NCBI GenBank assembly: GCA_964016885.1
Contig: OZ024740.1
Span: 287,866,001-287,930,000, forward strand
DNA: 64,000 nt
Reading direction: 5' to 3'
Source of the DNA: Eledone cirrhosa
Taxonomy: Eukaryota
The first letter of the stretch is position 1. Every line of letters begins with the position of its first letter. Below the pieces are notes generated by a model that was given only the letters and a program-made list of their open reading frames with translations, ran no database searches and was not told the origin of the DNA. This document shows positions 1 through 40,759 of the stretch, in pieces. The position numbers and the translations under genes are program-made.

Positions 1-3000
1 ACAACCTAAAGACTGCCATGACACTATTATGACACCCTCAAGACTACCATGACACATATGACACCCACAAGACTGCCATGACACTATTATTACACCCACA
101 AGACTGCCATGCCACTATTATGACACCCTCAAGACTACGATGACACCCACAAGACTACCATGACACTATTATGACACCCACAAGACTGCCATGACACTAT
201 TATGACACCCACAAGACTACTATGACACTATTATGACACCCTCAAGACTACCATGACACTATTATGACACCCTCAAGACTGCCATGACACTATTATGACA
301 CCCACAAGACTACCATGACACTATTATGACACCCTCAAGCCTACCATGACACTATTATGACACCCACAAGACTGCCATGACACTATTATGACACTATTAT
401 GACACCCTCAAGACTACCATGACACTATTATGACATCCACAAGACTACCATGACACATATGACACCCTCAAGACTACCATGACATCATTATGACACCCTC
501 AATACTGCCATGACACTATTATGACACCTTCAAGACTACCATGACACATAGGACACCCACAAGACTACCATGACACTATTATGACATCCACAAGACTACC
601 ATGACACATATGACACCCTCAAGACTACCATGACACTATTATGACACCCACAAGACTACCATGACACATATGACACCCTCAAGACTACCATGACACTATT
701 ATGACACCCACAAGACTGCCATGACACTATTATGACACCCTCAAGACTGCCATGACACTATTATGACACCCTCAAGACTACCATGACACTATTATGACAC
801 CCTCAAGACTGCCATGACACCCACAAGACTACCATGACACTATTATTACACCCACAAGACTAGCATGACACTATTATGACACCCACAAGACTAGCATGAC
901 ACTATTATAACACCCACAATACTACCATGACACTATTATGACATCCACAAGACTAGCATGACACATATGACACCCTCAAGACTACCATGACACTATTATG
1001 ACACCCTCAAGACTACCATGACACTATTATGACACCCTCAAGACTACCATGACACCCACAAGACTACCATGAGACTATTATGACACCCACACGACTACCA
1101 TGACACATATGACACCCTCAAGACTACCTTGAGACTATTATGACACCCACAAGACTACCATGACACTATTATGACACCATCAAGACTACCATGACACTAT
1201 TATGACACCCACAAGACTACCATGACACATATGACACACTCAAGACTACCATGACACATATGACACCCACAAGACTGCCATGACACTATTATGACACCCA
1301 CAAGACTACCATGACACTATTATGACACCCTCAAGACTACCCTGACACTATTATGACATCCACAAGACTTCTATGACACATATGACACACTCAATACTAC
1401 CATGACACTATTATGACACCCTCAAGACTACCATGACACTATTATGACACCCACAAGACTACCATGACACTATTATGACACCCTCAAGACTACCATGACA
1501 CATATGACACCCAGAAGACTGCCATGCCACTATTATGACAACCTAAAGACTGCCATGACACTATTATGACACCGACAAGACTACCATGACACATATGACA
1601 CCCACAAGACTACCATGACACATATGACACCCACAAGACTGCCATGACACTATTATTACACCCACAAGACTGCCATGACACTATTATGACACATATGAAA
1701 CCCACAAGACTACCATGACACTATTATTACACCCTCAAGCCTACCATGACGCTATTATGACACCCACAAGACTGCCATGACACTATTATGACACCCATAA
1801 GACTGCCATAACACTATTATGACACCCTCAAGACTACCATGACACTATTATGACATCCACAAGACTACCATGACACTATTATGACACACACAAGACTGCC
1901 ATGACACTATTATGACATCCACAAGACTACCATGACACATATGACACCCTCAAGACTACCATGACACTATTATGACATCCACAAGACTACCATGACACAT
2001 ATGACACCCACAAGACTGCCATGACACTATTATTACACCCTCATGACACCCACAAGACTGTCATGACACTATTATGACACCCTCAAGACTACCATGACGC
2101 TATTATGACATCCACAAGACTACCATGACACATATGACACCTTCAAGACTACCATGACACTATTTTGACACCCTCAAGACTACCATGACACTATTATGAC
2201 ACCCTCAAGATTACGATGACACATATGACACCCACAATACTACCATGACACTATTATGACACCAACAAGACTACCATGACACATAAGACACCCTCAAGAC
2301 TACCATGACACTATTATGACATCCACAAGACTACCATGACACATATGACACCCTCAAGACTACCATGACACTATTATTACACCCATAAGACTACCATGAC
2401 ACATATGACACCCTCAAGACTGCCATGACACTATTATTACACCCACAAGACTGCCATGACACTATTATGACATCCACAAGACTACCATGACACTATTATT
2501 ACACCACAAGACTACCATGACACATATGACACCCACAAGACTGCCATGACACTATTATTACACCGACAAGACTACCATGACACATATGACACCCACAAGA
2601 CTGCCATGACACTATTACGACACCCACAAGACTACCATGACACTATTATTACACCCACAAGACTACCATGACACATATGACACCCTCAAGACTGCCATGC
2701 CACTATTATTACACCCACAAGACTGCCATGACACTATTATGACATCCACAAGACTACCATGACACTATTATGACATCCACAAGACTACCATGACACATAT
2801 GACACCCACAAGACTGCCATGACACTATTATGACACCCTCAAGACTACCCTGACACTATTATGACACCCTCAAGACTACCATGACACATATGACACCCTC
2901 AAGACTACCATGCCACTATTATGACACCCTCAAGACTGCCATGACACTATTATGACACCCTCAAGACTATCATGACACTATTATGACACTCTCAAGACTA

Positions 3001-6000
3001 CCATGACACTATTATGACACCCAGAAGACTGCCATGACACTATTATGACACCCAGAAGACTGCCATGACACTATTATGACACCCACAAGACTACCATGAC
3101 ACATATGACACCCTCAAGACTACCATGACACTATCATGACACCCTCAAGACTACCATGACACTATTATGACACCCACAAGACTACCATGACACTATTATT
3201 ACACCCACAAGACTACCATGACACTATTATGACACCCTCAAGACTACCATGACACTATTATGACAACCTCAAGACTGCCATGACACTATTATGACACCCA
3301 CAAGACTACCATGACACATATGACACCCACAAGACTGCCATGACACTATTATGACATCCTCAAGACTACCATGACACTATTATGACACCCTCAAGACTAC
3401 CATGACACTGTTATTACACCCACAAGACTGCCCTGACACTATTATGACACCCACAAGACTGCCATGACACTATTATGACACCCACAAGACTACCATGACA
3501 CTATTATGACAACCTCAAGACTACCATGACACTATTATTACACCCACAAGACTACCATGACACTATTATGACATCCTCAAGACTACCATGACACTATCAT
3601 GACACCCTCAAGACTACCATCACACTATTATGACACCCTCAAGACTACCATGACACTGTTATTACACCCACAAGACTGCCCTGACACTATTATGACACCC
3701 ACAAGACTACCATGACACTATAATGACACCCTCAAGACTACCATGACACTATTATGACATCCTCAAGACTGCCATGACACTATTATGACACCCACAAGAC
3801 TACCATAACACTATTATGACACCCAGAAGACTACCATGACACTATTATGACACTCTCAAGACTACCATGACACTATAATGACACCCTCAAGACTACCATG
3901 ACACTATTATGACATCCTCAAGACTGCCATGACACTATTATGACACCCTCAAGACTACCATGACACTATTATGACACCCTCAAGACTACCATGACACTGT
4001 TATTACACCCACAAGACTGCCATGACACTATTATGACATCCACAAGACTACCATATCACTATTATGACACCCAGAAGACTGCCATGACACTATTATGACA
4101 CCCACAAGACTACCATGACACTATTATGACACCCACAAGACTGCCATGACACTATTATGACACCCTCAAGACTACCATGACACTATTATGACACCCACAA
4201 GACTACCATGACACATATGACACCCTCAAGACTACCATGACACTATTATGACACCCTCAAGACTACCATGACACTATTATGACACCCTCAAGACTACCAT
4301 GACACATATGACACCCTCAAGACTACCATGCCACTATTATGACACCCTCAAGACTGCCATGACACTATTATGACACCCTCAAGACTATCATGACACTATT
4401 ATGACACTCTCAAGACTACCATGACACTATTATGACACCCAGAAGACTGCCATGACACTATTATGACACCCAGAAGACTGCCATGACACTATTATGACAC
4501 CCTTAAGACTACCATGACACTATTATGACACCCACAAGACTACCATGACACATATGACACCCTCAAGACTACCATGACACTATTATGACACCCTCAAGAC
4601 TACCATGACACTATTATGACACCCACAAGACTACCATGACACTATTATTACACCCACAAGACTACCATGACACTATTATGACACCCTCAAGACTACCATG
4701 ACACTATTATGACACCCACAAGACTACCATGACACATATGACACCCTCAAGACTACCATGACACTATTATGACACCCTCAAGACTACCATGACACTATTA
4801 TGACACCCACAAGACTACCATGACACTATTATTACACCCACAAGACTACTATGACACTATTATGACACCCTCAAGACTACCATGACACTATTATGACACC
4901 CACAAGACTACCATGACACTATTATGACTCCCTCAAGACTACCATGACACTATTATTACACCCACAAGACTACCATGACACTATTATGACACCCACAAGA
5001 CTACCATGACACTATTATGACACCCTCAAGACTACCATGACACTATTATTACACCCACAAGACTGCCATGACACTATTATGACACCAACAAGACTGCCAT
5101 GACACTATTATGACACCCTCAAGACTACCATGACACTATTATGACACCCACAAGACTGCCATGACACTATTATGACACCAACAAGACTGCCATGACACTA
5201 TTATGACACCCACAAGACTACCATGACACTATTATGACACCCACAAGACTACTATGACACTATTATGACACCCTCAAGACTACCATGACACTATTATGAC
5301 ACCCTCAAGACTACCATGACACTATTATGACACCCACAAGACTACCATGACACTATTATGACACCCACAAGACTACCATGACACTATTATGACACCCTCA
5401 AGACTACCATGACACTATTATTACACCCACAAGACTGCCATGACACTATTATGACACCAACAAGACTGCCATGACACTATTATAACACCCTCAAGACTAC
5501 CATGACACTATTATTACACCCACAAGACTGCCATGACACTATTATGACACCAACAAGACTGCCATGACACTATTATGACACCCACAAGACTACCATGACA
5601 CTATTATGACACCCACAAGACTACTATGACACTATTATGACACCCTCAAGACTACCATGACACTATTATGACACCCTCAAGACTACCATGACACTATTAT
5701 GACACCCACAAGACTACCATGACACTATTATGACACCCTCAAGACTACCATGACACTATTATGACACCCACAAGACTACCATGACACTATTATGACACCC
5801 TCAAGACTACCATGACACTATTATGACACCCTCAAGACTGCCATGACACTATTATGACACCCTCAAGACTATCATGACACTATTATGACACTCTCAAGAC
5901 TACCATGACACTATTATGACACCCAGAAGACTGCCATGACACTATTATGACACCCAGAAGACTGCCATGACACTATTATGACACCCTCAAGACTACCATG

Positions 6001-8092
6001 ACACTATTATGACACCCACAAGACTACCATGACACATATGACACCCTCAAGACTACCATTACACTATTATGACACCCTCAAGACTACCATGACACTATTA
6101 TGACACCCACAAGACTACCATGACACTATTATTACACCCACAAGACTACCATGACACTATTATGACACCCTCAAGACTACCATGACACTATTATGACACC
6201 CACAAGACTACCATGACACTATTATGACTCCCTCATGACTACCATGACACTATTATTACACCCACAAGACTACCATGACACTATTATGACACCCACAAGA
6301 CTACCATGACACTATTATGACACCCTCAAGACTACCATGACACTATTATGACACCCTCAAGACTACCATGACACTATTATGACACCCACAAGACCACCAT
6401 GACACTATTATGACACCCTCAAGACTACCATGACACTATTATGACACCCTCAAGACTACCATGACACTATTATGACACCCACAAGACTACCATGACACTA
6501 TTATGACACCCTCAAGACTACCATGACACTATTATGACACCCACAAGACTACCATGACACTATTATGACACCCTCAAGACTACCATGACACTATTATGAC
6601 ACCCTCAAGACTGCCATGACACTATTATGACACCCTCAAGACTATCATGACACTATTATGACACTCTCAAGACTACCATGACACTATTATGACACCCAGA
6701 AGACTGCCATGACACTATTATGACACCCAGAAGACTGCCATGACACTATTATGACACCCTCAAGACTACCATGACACTATTATGACACCCACAAGACTAC
6801 CATGACACATATGACACCCTCAAGACTACCATGACACTATTATGACACCCTCAAGACTACCATGACACTATTATGACACCCACAAGACTACCATGACACT
6901 ATTATTACACCCACAAGACTACCATGACACTATTATGACACCCTCAAGACTACCATGACACTATTATGACACCCACAAGACTACCATGACACTATTATGA
7001 CTCCCTCAAGACTACCATGACACTATTATTACACCCACAAGACTACCATGACACTATTATGACACCCACAAGACTGCCATGACACTATTATGACACCAAC
7101 AAGACTGCCATGACACTATTATGACACCCTCAAGACTACCATGACACTATTATTACACCCACAAGACTACCATGGCACTACTATGACACCCACAAGACTA
7201 CCATGACACTATTATGACACCCTCAAGACTACCATGACACTATTATGACACCCTCAAGACTACCATGACACTATTATGACACCCACAAGACCACCATGAC
7301 ACTATTATGACACCCTCAAGACTACCATGACACTATTATGACACCCTCAAGACTGCCATGACACTATTATGACACCCACAAGGCTACCATGACACTATTA
7401 TGACACCCTCAAGACTACCATGACACTATTATGACACCCACAAGGCTACCATGACACTATTATGACACCCACAAGACTGCCATGACACTATTATGACACC
7501 CACAAGACTGCCATGACACTATTATGACACCCACAAGACTACTATGACACTATTATGACACCCACAAGACTGCCATGACACTATTATGACACCCTCAAGA
7601 CTACCATGACACTATTATGACACCCTCAAGACTACCATGACACTATTATGACACCCAGAAGACTGCCATGACACTATTATGACACCCACAATACTACCAT
7701 GACACTATTATTACACCCTCAAGACTACCATGACACTATTATGACACCCTCAAGACTACCATGACACTATTATGACACCCACAAGACTGCCCTGACACTA
7801 TTATGACACCCACAATACTACCATGACATTATTATGACACCCACAAGACTGCCCTGATACTATTATGACACCCACAAGACTACCATGACACTATTATGAC
7901 ACCCACAATACTACCATGACATTATTATGACACCCACAAGACTGCCCTGACACTATTATGACACCCACAAGACTACCATGACACTATTATGACACCCACA
8001 AAACTACCATGACACTATTATGACACCCACAAGACTACCATGACACTATTATGACACCCTCAAGACTGCCATGACACCCACAAGAATGTCAT
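1..8092. repeat. 31-bp satellite GACACTATTAT-GACACCC(T/A)CAA-GACT(A/G)CCAT, roughly 260 monomers, runs off the left edge
   Basis: Directly visible tandem array; 29-bp (GACACATAT) and 20-bp variants present. Confidence 0.99.
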
Positions 8093-13630: not shown

Positions 13631-14408
13631 ATAAATGGAAAAAATGAAACGAAATTTCATTTCTACTTAAATATAAGTATGTATACGTACATACATATAT
13701 GTATACAGACGTACAGTAGTATGTATATATATATACATACATGCACACATATATATATGTACGTATGGATTTACCGAGCATTTATTATAATGCTCAGTTT
13801 GTTTGAAAACAAACATCCCGAATTAAGTCGTACAGTGTTTAGCAACCATCGTTGCCCTTTTGTTCAACACTGACAAAGGAACGCTGTACTAGTTTCAAGC
13901 TTATTAGCTATCGTCAGCACCGTATACCTTCCTGCCAGATGATTGAACGTCTGAAAGTATATAGTTTCCTTATGCATATTAACGGCTGAGCAGCCTAATT
14001 TGCATATCGAGTGAGTTAATCGGCCAGGCGCACCGAAAACGATAAATGGAAAAAATGAAACGAAATTTCATTTCTCACTCTTAGTACGGCTGTTACTTAA
14101 ATATAAGTATGTATACGTACATACACATATGTATACAGATGTACAGTAGCATAGACGATAGTATAGACGATAGCTAATAAGCTTGAAACTAGTACATCGT
14201 TCCTTTGTCAGTGTTGAACAAAAGAGCAACGATGGTTGCTAGACACTGTACGGTTTAATTCGGGATGTTTGTTTACAAACAAACCGAGCATTATAATAAA
14301 TGCTCGGTAAATCCATACGTACATATATATATGTGTGCATGTATGTATATATATACATACTACTATACGTCTGTATACATATGTGTATGTACGTATACAT
14401 ACTTATAT
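13631..14408. mobile_element. Hammerhead family 2 element, locus 1 (minus partial tandem + inverted arm)
   Basis: 13631 unit restarts at 14042; 14166-14408 is inverted; homologous to 38452-39600. Confidence 0.85.
13880..13923 (-). ncRNA. Minimal type I hammerhead, family 2
   Basis: ACGGTG-CTGACGA-TAGCTAATAAGCTT-GAAA-CTAG-TA-CAGCGT. Confidence 0.72.
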
Positions 14409-26791: not shown

Positions 26792-27444
26792 GTTGGTACA
26801 TCATATGTTATTTCTGATATCTTAATTCTTCCTGCTTCACACATCATTGCATCACTTGTTGCACTTTTCACCTCACTCACCTCACTAGTAATTCCCATCA
26901 CACACCTATCTCATTGACTAATGTGTTGACAGTGTCATATGTAGTGTACAACCATAAAGGTGGTCCTTTCTTTACTTTAGCATTTTGTAGATTTTCTTAC
27001 TGTAGTTACTCTTGGTTTTTCGCCCATGTCACAATATCTGTATGTATAATGTCTTCTTCTTTTCTGGCACTCTGTTGGTTATGATGACAAGTGTTCCAGT
27101 TGAACCAATCAACGGAACTGCCTGCTTGTGAAATTAACGTGCAAATCGTTGAGCATTCCAGAGACACATGTACCATTAACATAGTTCTCAGGGAGATTCA
27201 TCGTGACACAGAATGTGACAAGGCTGGCCTTTCAAATTACAAGTACAACTCATTTTTTCCAGAGGAGTGGACTGGAGCAACGTGAAATAAAGTCTCTTGC
27301 TCAAGGACACAATACACCACTGGGAATCGAACCCATGACCTTGCGAATATGAGCCAAATACTCTAACCACAAAGCCATGCACCTTCACAAGTATAATGTA
27401 TAACCACAGTATTATCACTATTTCATCCAATGGTCATCATCCAT

Positions 27445-28596
27445 GCACATTACATGTTCATACCAGTGCACATTACATGTTCATACCAGTGCACATTACA
27501 TGTTCATACCAGCGCACATTACATGTGCATACCAGTGCACATTACATGTTCATACCAGCGCACATTACATGTTCATACCAGTGCACATTACATGTTCATA
27601 CCAGTGCACATTACATGTTCATACCAGCGCACATTACATGTTCATACCAGCGCACATTACATGTTCATACCAGTGTACATTACATGTTCATACCAGTGCA
27701 CATTACATGTTCATACCAGCGCACATTACATGTTCATACCAGTGCACATTACATGTTCATACCAGCGCACATTACATGTTCATACCAGTGCACATTACAT
27801 GTTCATACCAGCGCACATTACATGTTCATACAAGTGCACATTACATGTTCATACCAGTGCACATTACATGTTCATATCAGTGCACATTACATGTTCATAC
27901 CAGTGTACATTACATGTTCATACCAGCGCACATTACATGTTCATACCAGCGCACATTACATGTTCATACCAGTGTACATTACATGTTCATACCAGCGCAC
28001 ATTACATGTTCATACCAGTGTACATTACATGTTCATACCAGCGCACATTACATGTTCATACCAGTGCACATTACATGTTCATACCAGTGCACATTACATG
28101 TTCATACCAGTGCACATTACATGTTCATACCAGCGCACATTACATGTTCATACCAGCGCACATTACATGTTCATACCAGCGCACATTACATGTTCATACC
28201 AGCGCACATTACATGTTCATACCAGTGCACATTACATGTTCATACCAGTGCACATTACATGTTCATACCAGCGCACATTACATGTTCATACCAGCGCACA
28301 TTACATGTTCATACCAGCGCACATTACATGTTCATACCAGTGCACATTACATGTTCATACCAGTGCACATTACATGTTCATACCAGCGCACATTACATGT
28401 TCATACCAGCGCACATTACATGTTCATACCAGCGCACATTACATGTTCATACCAGCGCACATTACATGTTCATACCAGCGCACATTACATGTTCATACCA
28501 GTGCACATTACATGTTCATACCAGTGCACATTACATGTTCATACCAGTGCACATTACATGTTCATACCAGTGCACATTACATGTTCATACCAGTGT
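27445..28596. repeat. 23-bp minisatellite GCACATTACATGTTCATACCAG(T/C), ~50 copies
   Basis: Nearly homogeneous tandem array. Confidence 0.99.
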
Positions 28597-36520: not shown

Positions 36521-37920
<1,400 letters not shown>

Positions 37921-38130
37921 TTTAACGGCAGATTAGTATTCTAAGTTCCTTGAAACCTATATATTTACTATTTCCCACTAATAATTTTAATCCCCCCGCC
38001 CCAATAATTATATGTATTTGTAAGCGTGGATGTGTGTATGTGTATGTAAGTGTGTATGTATGTTTGTGTGTTTGTATGTGAGTATAAAAATACATATGTG
38101 CGCATGTATATGTATATATATGTATGTATT

Positions 38131-38161
<31 letters not shown>

Positions 38162-38172
38162 GTGTATATATG

Positions 38173-38205
<33 letters not shown>

Positions 38206-38384
38206 ATGTATATATATGTATGTATATGTATGTGTAGAGATGTGTGTATGTATGTGTATATGTGTCTGACTGTGTATATATGTGTGTGTATGTCTCTATA
38301 TATATGTATGTCTGAGTGTGTGTGTGTGTGTGTGTGGTTGTGTGTATATATACATGGGTATGTGTATGTATATGTGTATATATG

Positions 38385-38454
<70 letters not shown>

Positions 38455-38762
38455 AATTGAAACAAAATGAAAACGAAATTTCATTTCTCACTCTTAGTAT
38501 GGCACTTACTTAAATGTAAGTATGCATGTATACGTACATACATATATGTATACAGACGTACAGTAGCATGCACATATATATATATATATATACATATATA
38601 CATACATATGCATACAGGTACACATACATATATGCACGTATCAGTTTAGCGGCGCTTATTATAACGTCGCTTTGTTCGTTTGTAAACAAACTGAACAGCC
38701 TGAATTTATGCCATACGGTGTTAAGGCAACCACGTCACCTTTTTGTTCAACACTGACACAGG

Positions 38763-38807
38763 AACGATGTACTAGTTTCAAGCTTGTTAGCTATCATCAG
38801 CACCGTT
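38763..38807 (-). ncRNA. Minimal type I hammerhead, family 2
   Basis: AACGGTG-CTGATGA-TAGCTAACAAGCTT-GAAA-CTAG-TA-CATCGTT. Confidence 0.8.
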
Positions 38808-39304
38808 TACCCATCTGCCAGATAGTTGAACGTTCGAAATGATAGCTAACAAGCTTGAAACTAGTACATCGTTCCTGTGTCAGTGTTGAACAAAAAGGTG
38901 ACGTGGTTGCCTTAACACCGTATGGCATAAATTCAGGCTGTTCAGTTTGTTTACAAACGAACAAAGCGACGTTATAATAAGCGCCGCTAAACTGATACGT
39001 GCATATATGTATGTGTACCTGTATGCATATGTATGTATATATGTATATATATATATATATATATGTGCATGCTACTGTACGTCTGTATACATATATGTAT
39101 GTACGTATACATGCATACTTACATTTAAGTAAGTGCCATACTAAGAGTGAGAAATGAAATTTCGTTTTCATTTTGTTTCAATTTATCGTTTTCGGTATGC
39201 CTGACCGATTTAACTCACTCAATATGCAAATTAGGCTGCTCAGCCGTTAATTTTCATAAGGAAAGTATATACTTTCGAACGTTCAACTATCTGGCAGATG
39301 GGTA

Positions 39305-39349
39305 AACGGTGCTGATGATAGCTAACAAGCTTGAAACTAGTACATCGTT
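39305..39349 (+). ncRNA. Minimal type I hammerhead, family 2, sense to the ATG7 pre-mRNA
   Basis: Same motif; predicted GUA cleavage after 39342; 7-bp stem I; palindromic stem III. Confidence 0.8.
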
Positions 39350-40091
39350 CCTGTGTCAGTGTTGAACAAAAAGGTGACGTGGTTGCTTTAACACCGTATG
39401 GCATAAATTCAGGCTGTTCAGTTTGTTTACAAACGAACAAAGCGACGTTATAATAAGCGCCGCTAAACTGATACGTGCATATATGTATGTGTACCTGTAT
39501 GCATATGTATGTATATATGTATATATATATATATATATGTGCATGCTACTGTACGTCTGTATACATATATGTATGTACGTATACATGCATACTTACATAT
39601 ATATATATATATGTATATATATATGGGTGTATATTTATATGTATGGATATATGTTTTACTTATTTTTATGTGTGTGCATACAAACAGGTCAATAGGCGTG
39701 AGCGTAAGTATGTGTATGTGTGTGTGTGTACGAATGTATGTATCGAACGTATGGATGTGTAAATGTGCGTGTGTATATAAGCATGTATATTTTATGTCTC
39801 TCCTTTATGTTTTTTTTATATTTCTTTTGTGAGACATGCGTGTCTGTGTATGTATGTACCCCCCCCCCATTTTGTCTTTTTTTGTCTTCTTTTTTTGAGT
39901 TTTTCCTTCCATAAAAAAAATTTTTTATTTCTAATTTATGGATACACTTTTATAAGTATGTCGAGATTGACACTTTCCTTTAATTACTATATTCCCTTAC
40001 CTCTTTTACTTCCGCATCTAAATGTAAGTGTGTGTGGGCGTGTTTATGTGAGCGCCTCAATATCCATATATTTATAATAATAATGTGTATG

Positions 40092-40179
<88 letters not shown>

Positions 40180-40759
40180 TATTCTGTCTGTTGATTGTAG
40201 ACATATGGATACATTAGCCCTAAATTTTTATATTTACATACACTTTTTCAAAATACGTATACATATGAGCATACACTTTTATGCACATCTGTGAGCGTAT
40301 TTACATACATATACACACACCTAACTGTATTTTCTTGATAAATTTTTATGTATCTCAATCCTTATTTCATTGGTCTATTTAAAATCTGTTCCCAAACAGA
40401 CCTATTATTTTGAATTGTCGTTATTATCAATAAACTAGCATCATTATTTCAAATCCCGCCGAGGTTGACTTTGCCTTTCATCCTTACGGGGTCGATAAAA
40501 TAAAGTACCAGTAATGCATTGGGTAATTGCTGGCCTTGTGCCTAAAGTAGAAACAATTATTTCTGAAGACAGCATATATATGTGAAGGTATGTATATTCT
40601 CTCTGATAGTTTGTATAATTTTGTACATAGATCTTTTGAATATGCATACCTATTCTAACACATATATGTCCTAGAAACGATCGTAAAATAATGAACTTTT
40701 TTTGTTTAATATAAGGAACTGTTTCTTTGTTTATTCATTATTTTTTTAATAATTTATAT

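What the first reader, a model, noticed from the sequence alone, without database searches (positions are those of the whole stretch)
38452..39600. Family 2 locus: 476-bp monomer delimited by an apparently dimer-dependent hammerhead
The full motif at 39305-39349 has an intact CUGAUGA/GAAA/GUA core and a 7-bp stem I. Stem III is only the palindrome CUAG, which cannot fold as a monomer hairpin, and position 10.1-11.1 is U-U. The upstream truncated copy (38839-38873) keeps GAAA-CTAG-TA-CATCGTT and could supply the partner strand of a dimeric hammerhead in cis. The arms are nearly identical, implying a recent insertion.
Basis: partly seen in the sequence, partly recalled or inferred. Interest (0 to 1): 0.75.

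Follow-up and report, generated by a model that had tools for sequence, protein, structure and literature searches.

The report
Young retrozyme insertion, Penelope-type ends
This is one recent, back-to-back insertion of a very abundant protein-less repeat that carries a hammerhead (self-cutting RNA) motif predicted to need a partner copy; it is a known kind of element, and its two fixed end points suggest that a Penelope-type jumping gene of the same genome likely copies it into TA repeats.

Summary
Real, but of a known kind: a metazoan non-LTR retrozyme. The type I hammerhead motif at 39305-39349 is as described. The 33-nt core has 13,322 exact matches in the genome, many in tandem arrays.

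The locus is a head-to-head insertion into (TA)n. Its arms end at two fixed unit positions, one of each kind in 43 of 44 classifiable independent insertions. An intact Hydra-type Penelope family shows the same end pattern (5 of 5 pairs) and the same terminal words.

Correction: in the proposed cis pair, the full copy is the enzyme and the truncated copy the substrate. The cut is predicted after 38866, not 39342, so no monomer is released in cis. The inverted arm would block even that cut.

A block resembling host snRNA promoters lies just upstream (weak score). Cleavage, transcription and circles are untested. The scan already reported this system on other DNA of this genome.

The parts
38452..38839 (-). 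Left (inverted) arm: starts at unit position 407, just past the promoter-like block, and ends at the T-rich '...TTTAT' end (unit position about 320)
38763..38807 (-).
38839..38839 (.). Head-to-head junction, one shared base
38839..38873 (+). Truncated hammerhead copy A: lacks C3-U4-G5 and the stem I 5' strand; can serve only as substrate (GUA at 38864-38866)
38867..39342 (+). One 476-bp unit from cut site to cut site; non-coding; folds strongly (z = -9.0) with its two ends paired together
39223..39271 (+). snRNA-promoter-like block: TATGCAAATTAG 39223-39234 (same 12-mer as upstream of one host U6 gene), TCAG 39240-39243, TATATA 39266-39271; predicted start near 39296 (inferred)
39281..39367 (+). 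Extended, internally looped stem I around the hammerhead (predicted)
39305..39349 (+). Complete type I hammerhead copy B: stem I 7 bp, U.U at 10.1-11.1, stem II 4 bp, palindromic helix III ACUAGU, GUA 39340-39342
39343..39598 (+). End of the right arm, stopping at the '...TACAT' end (unit position about 258)
38428..38453 (.). (TA)n target, left side; the same G-interrupted 26-mer stands at 39599-39624 (possible target-site duplication, length uncertain)
39599..39624 (.). (TA)n target, right side
36702..40757 (+). Host sequence: 5'-truncated, diverged (about 67-88%) 3' end of a Hydra-type Penelope-like element, in whose TA-rich tail the retrozyme sits

Best explanation
The locus is one young head-to-head insertion of an abundant non-coding tandem retroposon (a non-LTR retrozyme) whose unit carries a type I hammerhead motif predicted to cut only with a partner copy, and which is likely pasted into (TA)n repeats by a Hydra-type Penelope enzyme. 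Likely cycle: (1) multi-unit arrays elsewhere are transcribed, possibly from an snRNA-type block inside each unit (inferred). (2) Each unit folds back so that the core of copy n+1 pairs with the site of copy n through the ACUAGU helix and cuts it (predicted). (3) Monomers are ligated to circles (inferred from coral, mussel and axolotl retrozymes). (4) The Penelope protein nicks both strands of a (TA)n tract and primes one cDNA from each of two fixed sites of the RNA (...TACAT and ...TTTAT); the two cDNAs run across cut sites and are joined head to head (footprint shown, enzymology inferred). This copy is likely a dead end: only site 38866 has a partner core in cis, and read-through including the left arm would form a long hairpin.
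For: Family size and arrays: 13,322 exact cores, control 0; arrays of up to 18 units; a 100% identical unit on another contig. Ribozyme constraint: of 162 copies found with a tolerant pattern, 153 keep CUGA(U/C)GA, with the free position 7 the main variant, and 159 keep GAAACUAGUA; one two-sided stem I change, G.U to U.G. Folding. End pattern: 22 of 22 classifiable head-to-head insertions in the first set (20 independent; 27 examined, 5 unclassifiable) and 23 of 24 in a second set (34 pairs examined, 10 unclassifiable) have one end of each kind, nearly all into (TA)n. The intact 830-codon Penelope family has Hydra motifs. 28 of its 30 fetched copies stop at one of two places...TTTAT or ...TACAT, and 5 of 5 head-to-head pairs have one of each. 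Tail and inverted arms are described Penelope features (PMC8557442); two reverse-transcription start sites were shown in vitro for an anole element (PMC11167929).
Against: No cleavage, transcript or circle was observed. Covariation is thin: 1 pair of 26, not above the shuffle control for pair counts, and the family is young, so conservation partly reflects age. The retrozyme shares only short end words with the Penelope family: no blastn match beyond a chance hit, and a different hammerhead. The order of the two ends along the linear unit differs (62 nt vs 137 nt apart, reversed unless the unit is read as a circle). One of 24 pairs had two T-type ends. The test that both arms come from one RNA was inconclusive: arms were strictly closest to each other in 7 of 43 pairs. 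Many other Penelope families exist here (49,381 first-look candidates), so the partner is not pinned down. Only 1 of 9 Xenopus retrozyme dimers cleaved in vitro (bioRxiv 10.64898/2026.07.22.740005).
Confidence: 0.8

Rival explanations
1. The units are cut-down terminal repeats (pLTRs) of an autonomous Penelope family not found here, and the arrays are copied from uncut linear multimer transcripts; no circle and no own promoter are needed.
For: Xenopus retrozymes resemble pLTRs (bioRxiv 10.64898/2026.07.22.740005). Uncut RNA was the main substrate of the anole element in vitro (PMC11167929). Some arrays have mixed units (L032, L033, L042). Only one Penelope family was examined in full.
Against: No Penelope reading frame was seen joined in register to the unit in the 10-kb loci scanned for frames; the frame next to L041 is separated by (TA)n. 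Several long arrays are nearly uniform (L031, L036, L210, L219). A promoter-like block sits inside the unit.
Confidence: 0.12
2. One reading: the locus itself makes a 476-nt monomer, the truncated copy completing a double hammerhead in cis that cuts after 39342.
For: Helix III between copies A and B can form, and the fold is near the minimum for 38839-39598.
Against: Copy A has no C3-U4-G5 and no stem I 5' strand, so only one active site forms and it holds A's GUA (38866). The left arm would sequester copy A. The promoter-like block lies downstream of A.
Confidence: 0.05
3. The hammerhead works as a monomer, stabilised by the long extended stem I and tertiary contacts or by a protein.
For: An extended stem I is kept across 12 distinct copies (93.9% of cells paired). 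Newt hammerheads can cut as single extended motifs (PMC6155905, passage). Axolotl monomers cut weakly, 6-22% per hour (PMC7229834).
Against: The monomer active fold lies about 7.5 kcal/mol above the minimum. The helix III palindrome is kept in 160 of 162 copies (the search pattern favours this).
Confidence: 0.15
4. A satellite spread by DNA-level events (unequal exchange, fold-back repair), with a dead hammerhead look-alike.
For: Long uniform arrays and palindromic centres can arise at DNA level. No RNA evidence was obtained.
Against: Dispersed copies with two fixed outer ends, scattered inner ends and (TA)n targets match a retrotransposon footprint.
Confidence: 0.03

Closest known systems
Metazoan non-LTR retrozymes (coral, mussel, axolotl; PMC7229834, parts 2-4 of 6 and passages read; bioRxiv 10.64898/2026.07.22.740005, parts 1-3 of 5 read)
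   Same: Non-coding tandem units with one type I hammerhead each, low GC, thousands of copies, strong folding. Helix III of one pair plus a palindromic tetraloop as in axolotl HHR_Amex1; U.U at the base of helix II as in HHR_Amex2.
   Different: Unit 420-520 bp, at or above the 150-450 bp range given in PMC7229834. Head-to-head insertions with two fixed ends were not described in the parts read. Circles and cleavage are not shown here.
Hydra-clade Penelope-like elements (PMC8557442: section 11, passages, and one supplementary table searched)
   Same: (TA)n targets, inverted 5'-truncated arm, an extension at one end only. The host genome's intact family has RWR, DKT, CxCX5C, CxxC and CxH motifs and the same terminal words.
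   Different: The retrozyme codes for nothing and has no sequence match to that family beyond the end words. Its two ends lie about 60 bp apart and the family's 137 bp apart, against the 30-40 bp tail in print.
Newt satellite 2 (Coats, Zhang and Epstein 1994: not held; seen only as cited in PMC2220036)
   Same: Tandem hammerhead repeat that cuts well as a dimer and is reported to have an internal snRNA-type promoter.
   Different: Here the promoter is only a sequence resemblance, mixing U6-like and U1/U2-like elements. It is untested.
Anole Poseidon element PAc (PMC11167929, parts 1-2 of 4 read)
   Same: Two internal start sites of reverse transcription explain the tail; AT-rich targets are cut on both strands.
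   Different: PAc is autonomous and of another clade; the strict one-of-each pairing of ends was not described in the parts read.

Membership tests
Type I hammerhead ribozyme | Core CUGANGA / GAAA / NUH with three helices in type I order | tested here: met
   helix III reduced to one pair plus CUAG, and 10.1-11.1 is U.U instead of the usual G-C
Type I hammerhead ribozyme | Compensatory changes in the helices | tested here: inconclusive
   one two-sided change in 26 pairs over 12 distinct rows
Type I hammerhead ribozyme | Self-cleavage at the NUH site | not testable with these tools
   needs in vitro assay; Rfam scan gave 0 hits at gathering score
Non-LTR retrozyme | Tandem non-coding units of a few hundred bp, one type I hammerhead per unit | tested here: met
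Non-LTR retrozyme | At least two consecutive complete hammerheads (criterion for an 'active' locus in the 2026 preprint) | tested here: not met
   not met at this locus (one complete copy per strand); met at many other loci of the family
Non-LTR retrozyme | Strongly self-paired monomer RNA | tested here: met
   z = -9.0, 0 of 100 shuffles as stable; part of this comes from the internal TA-rich hairpin
Non-LTR retrozyme | Target-site duplication longer than 4 bp when present | tested here: inconclusive
   8-12 bp readable by eye at L035, L049, L092; up to 26 bp here; mostly hidden by (TA)n; no chance control run
Non-LTR retrozyme | Expressed as linear and circular RNA | not testable with these tools
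   no RNA run was available to test this
Penelope-mobilised element | Partial tandems with an inverted 5'-truncated arm and an extension at one end only | tested here: met
   22 of 22 and 23 of 24 classifiable pairs
Penelope-mobilised element | Sequence homology to the pLTR of an autonomous partner | tested here: inconclusive
   none with the one intact family examined, only shared end words; other families not surveyed
Hydra clade (candidate partner, 830 codons) | RWK-like, DKT, CxCX5C, CxxC and CxH motifs; C-terminal GIY-YIG; (TA)n targets | tested here: met
   read by eye from the translation against PMC8557442 section 11; Pfam gave 0 families for the truncated L041 copy; no tree built
snRNA-type internal promoter | Host PSE-like word and TATA-like word at host spacing | tested here: inconclusive
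   best of 952 unit positions is 39296, score 6.9 (57 of 127,740 window positions as high), but host genes score 13-31 in leave-one-out; one subfamily has an 8-bp deletion after the TATA word

The most novel reading that the evidence does not exclude
A self-promoted, rolling-circle retroposon: each unit carries a host snRNA-type promoter, the RNA is cut copy-to-copy and circularised, and a Hydra-type Penelope enzyme that recognises only short end signals primes from two fixed sites on the circle, one per strand of a cut (TA)n target. This names a specific enzyme-RNA pair for the long-proposed Penelope mobilisation of animal retrozymes, as a SINE-like parasite and not a pLTR derivative.
Probability: 0.35. 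Interest if true: 0.7.

Novelty: new member of a known kind. Interest (0 to 1): 0.42.

Why it matters
How animal retrozymes move is still a proposal: PMC7229834 calls Penelope elements a strong candidate, and the 2026 preprint offers co-occurrence and pLTR similarity. Here a young family of over 13,000 motif copies and an intact, multi-copy Penelope family leave the same two-end footprint in one genome. That makes the step testable in vitro with one protein and one RNA. The locus itself is an ordinary, probably inactive copy; its value is as a natural half-dimer that predicts which site is cut. I found no report of a cephalopod retrozyme in searches. The supplement of PMC7229834 could not be read and may list one.

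Tried and rejected
Rfam gathering scan of the window: 0 hits. Sequencing runs: no RNA holder listed; four contig sets were laid and show presence of the family only.

Search for an autonomous element carrying this unit: none in the loci scanned, nor among the 30 loci of other hammerhead families. I first took the neighbouring Penelope frame for a Naiad; rejected because its endonuclease is C-terminal.

The idea that single-armed insertions always end at TACAT was rejected: 6 of 12 end at each site. Clustering of inner junctions at unit positions 443-450 did not replicate; the narrow 311-315 cluster also did not (1 case). The test that both arms derive from one RNA molecule was inconclusive (the window's own value is an alignment artefact).

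Automatic end calling by pattern failed because of an internal palindrome, so ends were read by eye. One monomer energy used a wrong pair and was redone. Whole-region alignment of U6 upstream DNA to the unit was weak (best 3 of 300 shuffles as high). Four papers were not held.

Full report
Observation. The motif is in the sequence as described: stem I 5' strand 39305-39311, CUGAUGA 39312-39318, U at 10.1, a 4-bp stem II, U at 11.1, GAAA, CUAG, and the GUA site at 39340-39342, followed by CAUCGUU. The direct repeat has a period of 476 bp, and long inverted repeats join 38452-38844 to both copies. The plus-strand copy at 38839 starts at A6 and lacks C3-U4-G5 and the 5' strand of stem I. The left arm differs from copy A by no substitution and from copy B by one. 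Rfam has no match at gathering score.

Family. The genome (3.0 Gb) holds 13,322 exact matches to the 33-nt core, against 0 for the reversed control; 8,203 match a 36-nt pattern of this subfamily. Copies occur singly, in tandem arrays (18 units seen in L036) and as head-to-head pairs. A unit on contig C5 is 100% identical to this one. An older copy of the same build lies at about 13631-14405 of this window. That the animal is a cephalopod is not established by my calls; it rests on recall of its repeats and on earlier scan notes.

Ribozyme. Of 162 copies found with a tolerant pattern, 125 read CUGAUGA and 28 CUGACGA, so the free position 7 is the main variant; 159 keep GAAACUAGUA (the pattern favours conserved copies). 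One stem I pair changes on both sides, G.U to U.G, in a subfamily; this is the only such pair of 26. The unit folds far better than shuffles (z = -9.0) and brings its two ends together, so the 5' strand of stem I of one copy pairs with the 3' strand of the copy before it (probability 0.85-0.96 for six of seven pairs). As a monomer, helix III is one pair closing CUAG and costs 5.4 kcal/mol. Axolotl retrozymes have such motifs and cut much better as dimers (PMC7229834, part 3).

Which site is cut. A hammerhead core needs its own CUGAUGA, stem II and GAAA, and cuts the strand that pairs with it in helices III and I (established hammerhead architecture). Copy A has no CUG, so only one site can form in cis: B's core on A's GUA. 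For 38839-39598 that fold lies 0.8 kcal/mol above the minimum, and B cutting itself lies 7.6 above. The predicted cut is therefore after 38866, not after 39342, and no monomer is freed without a second molecule. With the left arm included, copy A is locked in a long hairpin and the fold lies 78 kcal/mol above the minimum. This copy is likely a dead end; intact arrays are the likely sources.

Insertion footprint. Outer ends fall at two places, about 258 (...TACAT) and about 320 (...TTTAT) nt after the cut site, and run into (TA)n. In the first set I examined 27 head-to-head insertions. 22 had both ends classifiable (20 independent, since three at L093 look duplicated) and all had one of each kind; 5 could not be classified, one of which (L096) may be an exception. 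In a second set of 40 loci, 34 pairs were read: 23 had one of each, 1 had two TTTAT-type ends, and 10 were unclassifiable. Twelve of these 40 loci were picked for showing opposite-strand hits, not for their ends. Single arms ended 6 at each site. Inner ends are scattered, none of 48 at the cut site, and most arms run across one or more cut sites, so the template was a circle or an uncut multimer. Duplications of 8-12 bp can be read at three loci; here a 26-mer with one G stands on both sides, but its length is uncertain. Inverted arms and a one-sided tail are described Penelope features (PMC8557442, passages), and two start sites explain the tail in vitro (PMC11167929).

Candidate partner. The insertion sits in the TA-rich tail of a truncated Penelope-like copy (36702-40757). 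A related family has many intact 830-codon frames with RWR, DKT, CxCX5C, CxxC and CxH motifs, as defined for the Hydra clade. Of 30 fetched copies, 13 end at ...TTTAT, 15 at ...TACAT 137 bp further on, and 2 continue; 5 of 5 head-to-head pairs have one of each (the query could not retrieve ends upstream of it). One other Penelope family checked has different end words. Against this partner: no sequence match to the unit, a different hammerhead with a long stem II, reversed order of the ends on the linear unit, and many unsurveyed families.

Promoter-like block. Host U1 and U2 genes share TCAGT at -56 to -58 and a TATA-like word near -30; host U6 genes share TATGC(A/T)AAT(T/G)AG at about -78. 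The unit has TCAG and TATATA at -56 and -30 from 39296, and the U6-type 12-mer at -73. A profile from 8 U1/U2 loci ranks 39296 first of 952 unit positions, but at 6.9 against 13-31 for host genes left out in turn. One subfamily has lost 8 bp after the TATA word, and these words also lie in predicted RNA hairpins. An snRNA-type promoter is reported for newt satellite 2 (cited in PMC2220036; the original is not held). I found this block before consulting earlier notes, which report the same on other DNA. It remains a resemblance.

Verdict. A new member of a known kind, the metazoan non-LTR retrozymes. Shown: the motif, the family, the footprint and its match to a Hydra-type family. Predicted: dimer dependence and the cut site. 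Inferred: transcription, circles and the enzyme. Earlier notes of this scan reached the same general reading on other DNA of this genome; they are not independent support. Papers seen: PMC4209133 parts 1-2 of 4; PMC7229834 parts 2-4 of 6 and passages; PMC11167929 parts 1-2 of 4; PMC8557442 passages, section 11 and a supplement search; the 2026 preprint parts 1-3 of 5; passages of PMC6155905, PMC2837043, PMC2220036 and PMC6765202. Unread supplements of PMC7229834 and PMC4209133 may list cephalopod motifs.

Noticed in passing
window about 13631-14405: Older head-to-head insertion of the same family (73-88% identity) with the same one-of-each ends; its minus-arm hammerhead has a G.G mismatch in stem I and its plus-arm copy is truncated inside the core.
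   Followed up: partly
window 40555-40693: Hammerhead-like motif of the host Hydra-type element: 7-bp stem I, about 100-nt stem II, palindromic helix III ACGAUCGU, GUA at 40683-40685; standard short-stem searches miss it.
   Followed up: partly
inner junctions of head-to-head insertions: Inner ends seem over-represented in the T-rich tract at unit positions 295-315 (7 of 48 in the first set, about 8 more in the second). Post hoc and unexplained; could be microhomology or a stop at the second start site.
   Followed up: partly
unit positions 1-298 (39343 onward): No run of four or more T from the predicted start until unit position 299, just before the TTTAT end; compatible with a polymerase III terminator or with an enzyme recognition tract.
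   Followed up: no
G000, (L132-L161, L002, L049, L096, L097): Several other hammerhead-like families: 8,230 matches to a generic core pattern that excludes this family, against 974 for the control; some have palindromic helix III.
   Followed up: no
L100-L131: Host U1 and U2 genes carry a TATA-like word near -30 as well as TCAGT at -57, and U6 genes an octamer-like word at about -77, closer than the vertebrate distal element (vertebrate layout recalled).
   Followed up: partly
L106, L107, L109, L111: Some U6 genes in the C19 array have a short interspersed repeat inserted in the promoter, flanked by a repeat of the TATA-like stretch.
   Followed up: no
L032 (G000:C4:212925000-212934999): Array with mixed units and higher-order repeats of about 2-3 kb, unlike the uniform arrays L031 and L036.
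   Followed up: no
window 140-8077 and 27437-28595: 31-bp minisatellite of about 257 copies and 23-bp minisatellite of about 50 copies.
   Followed up: no
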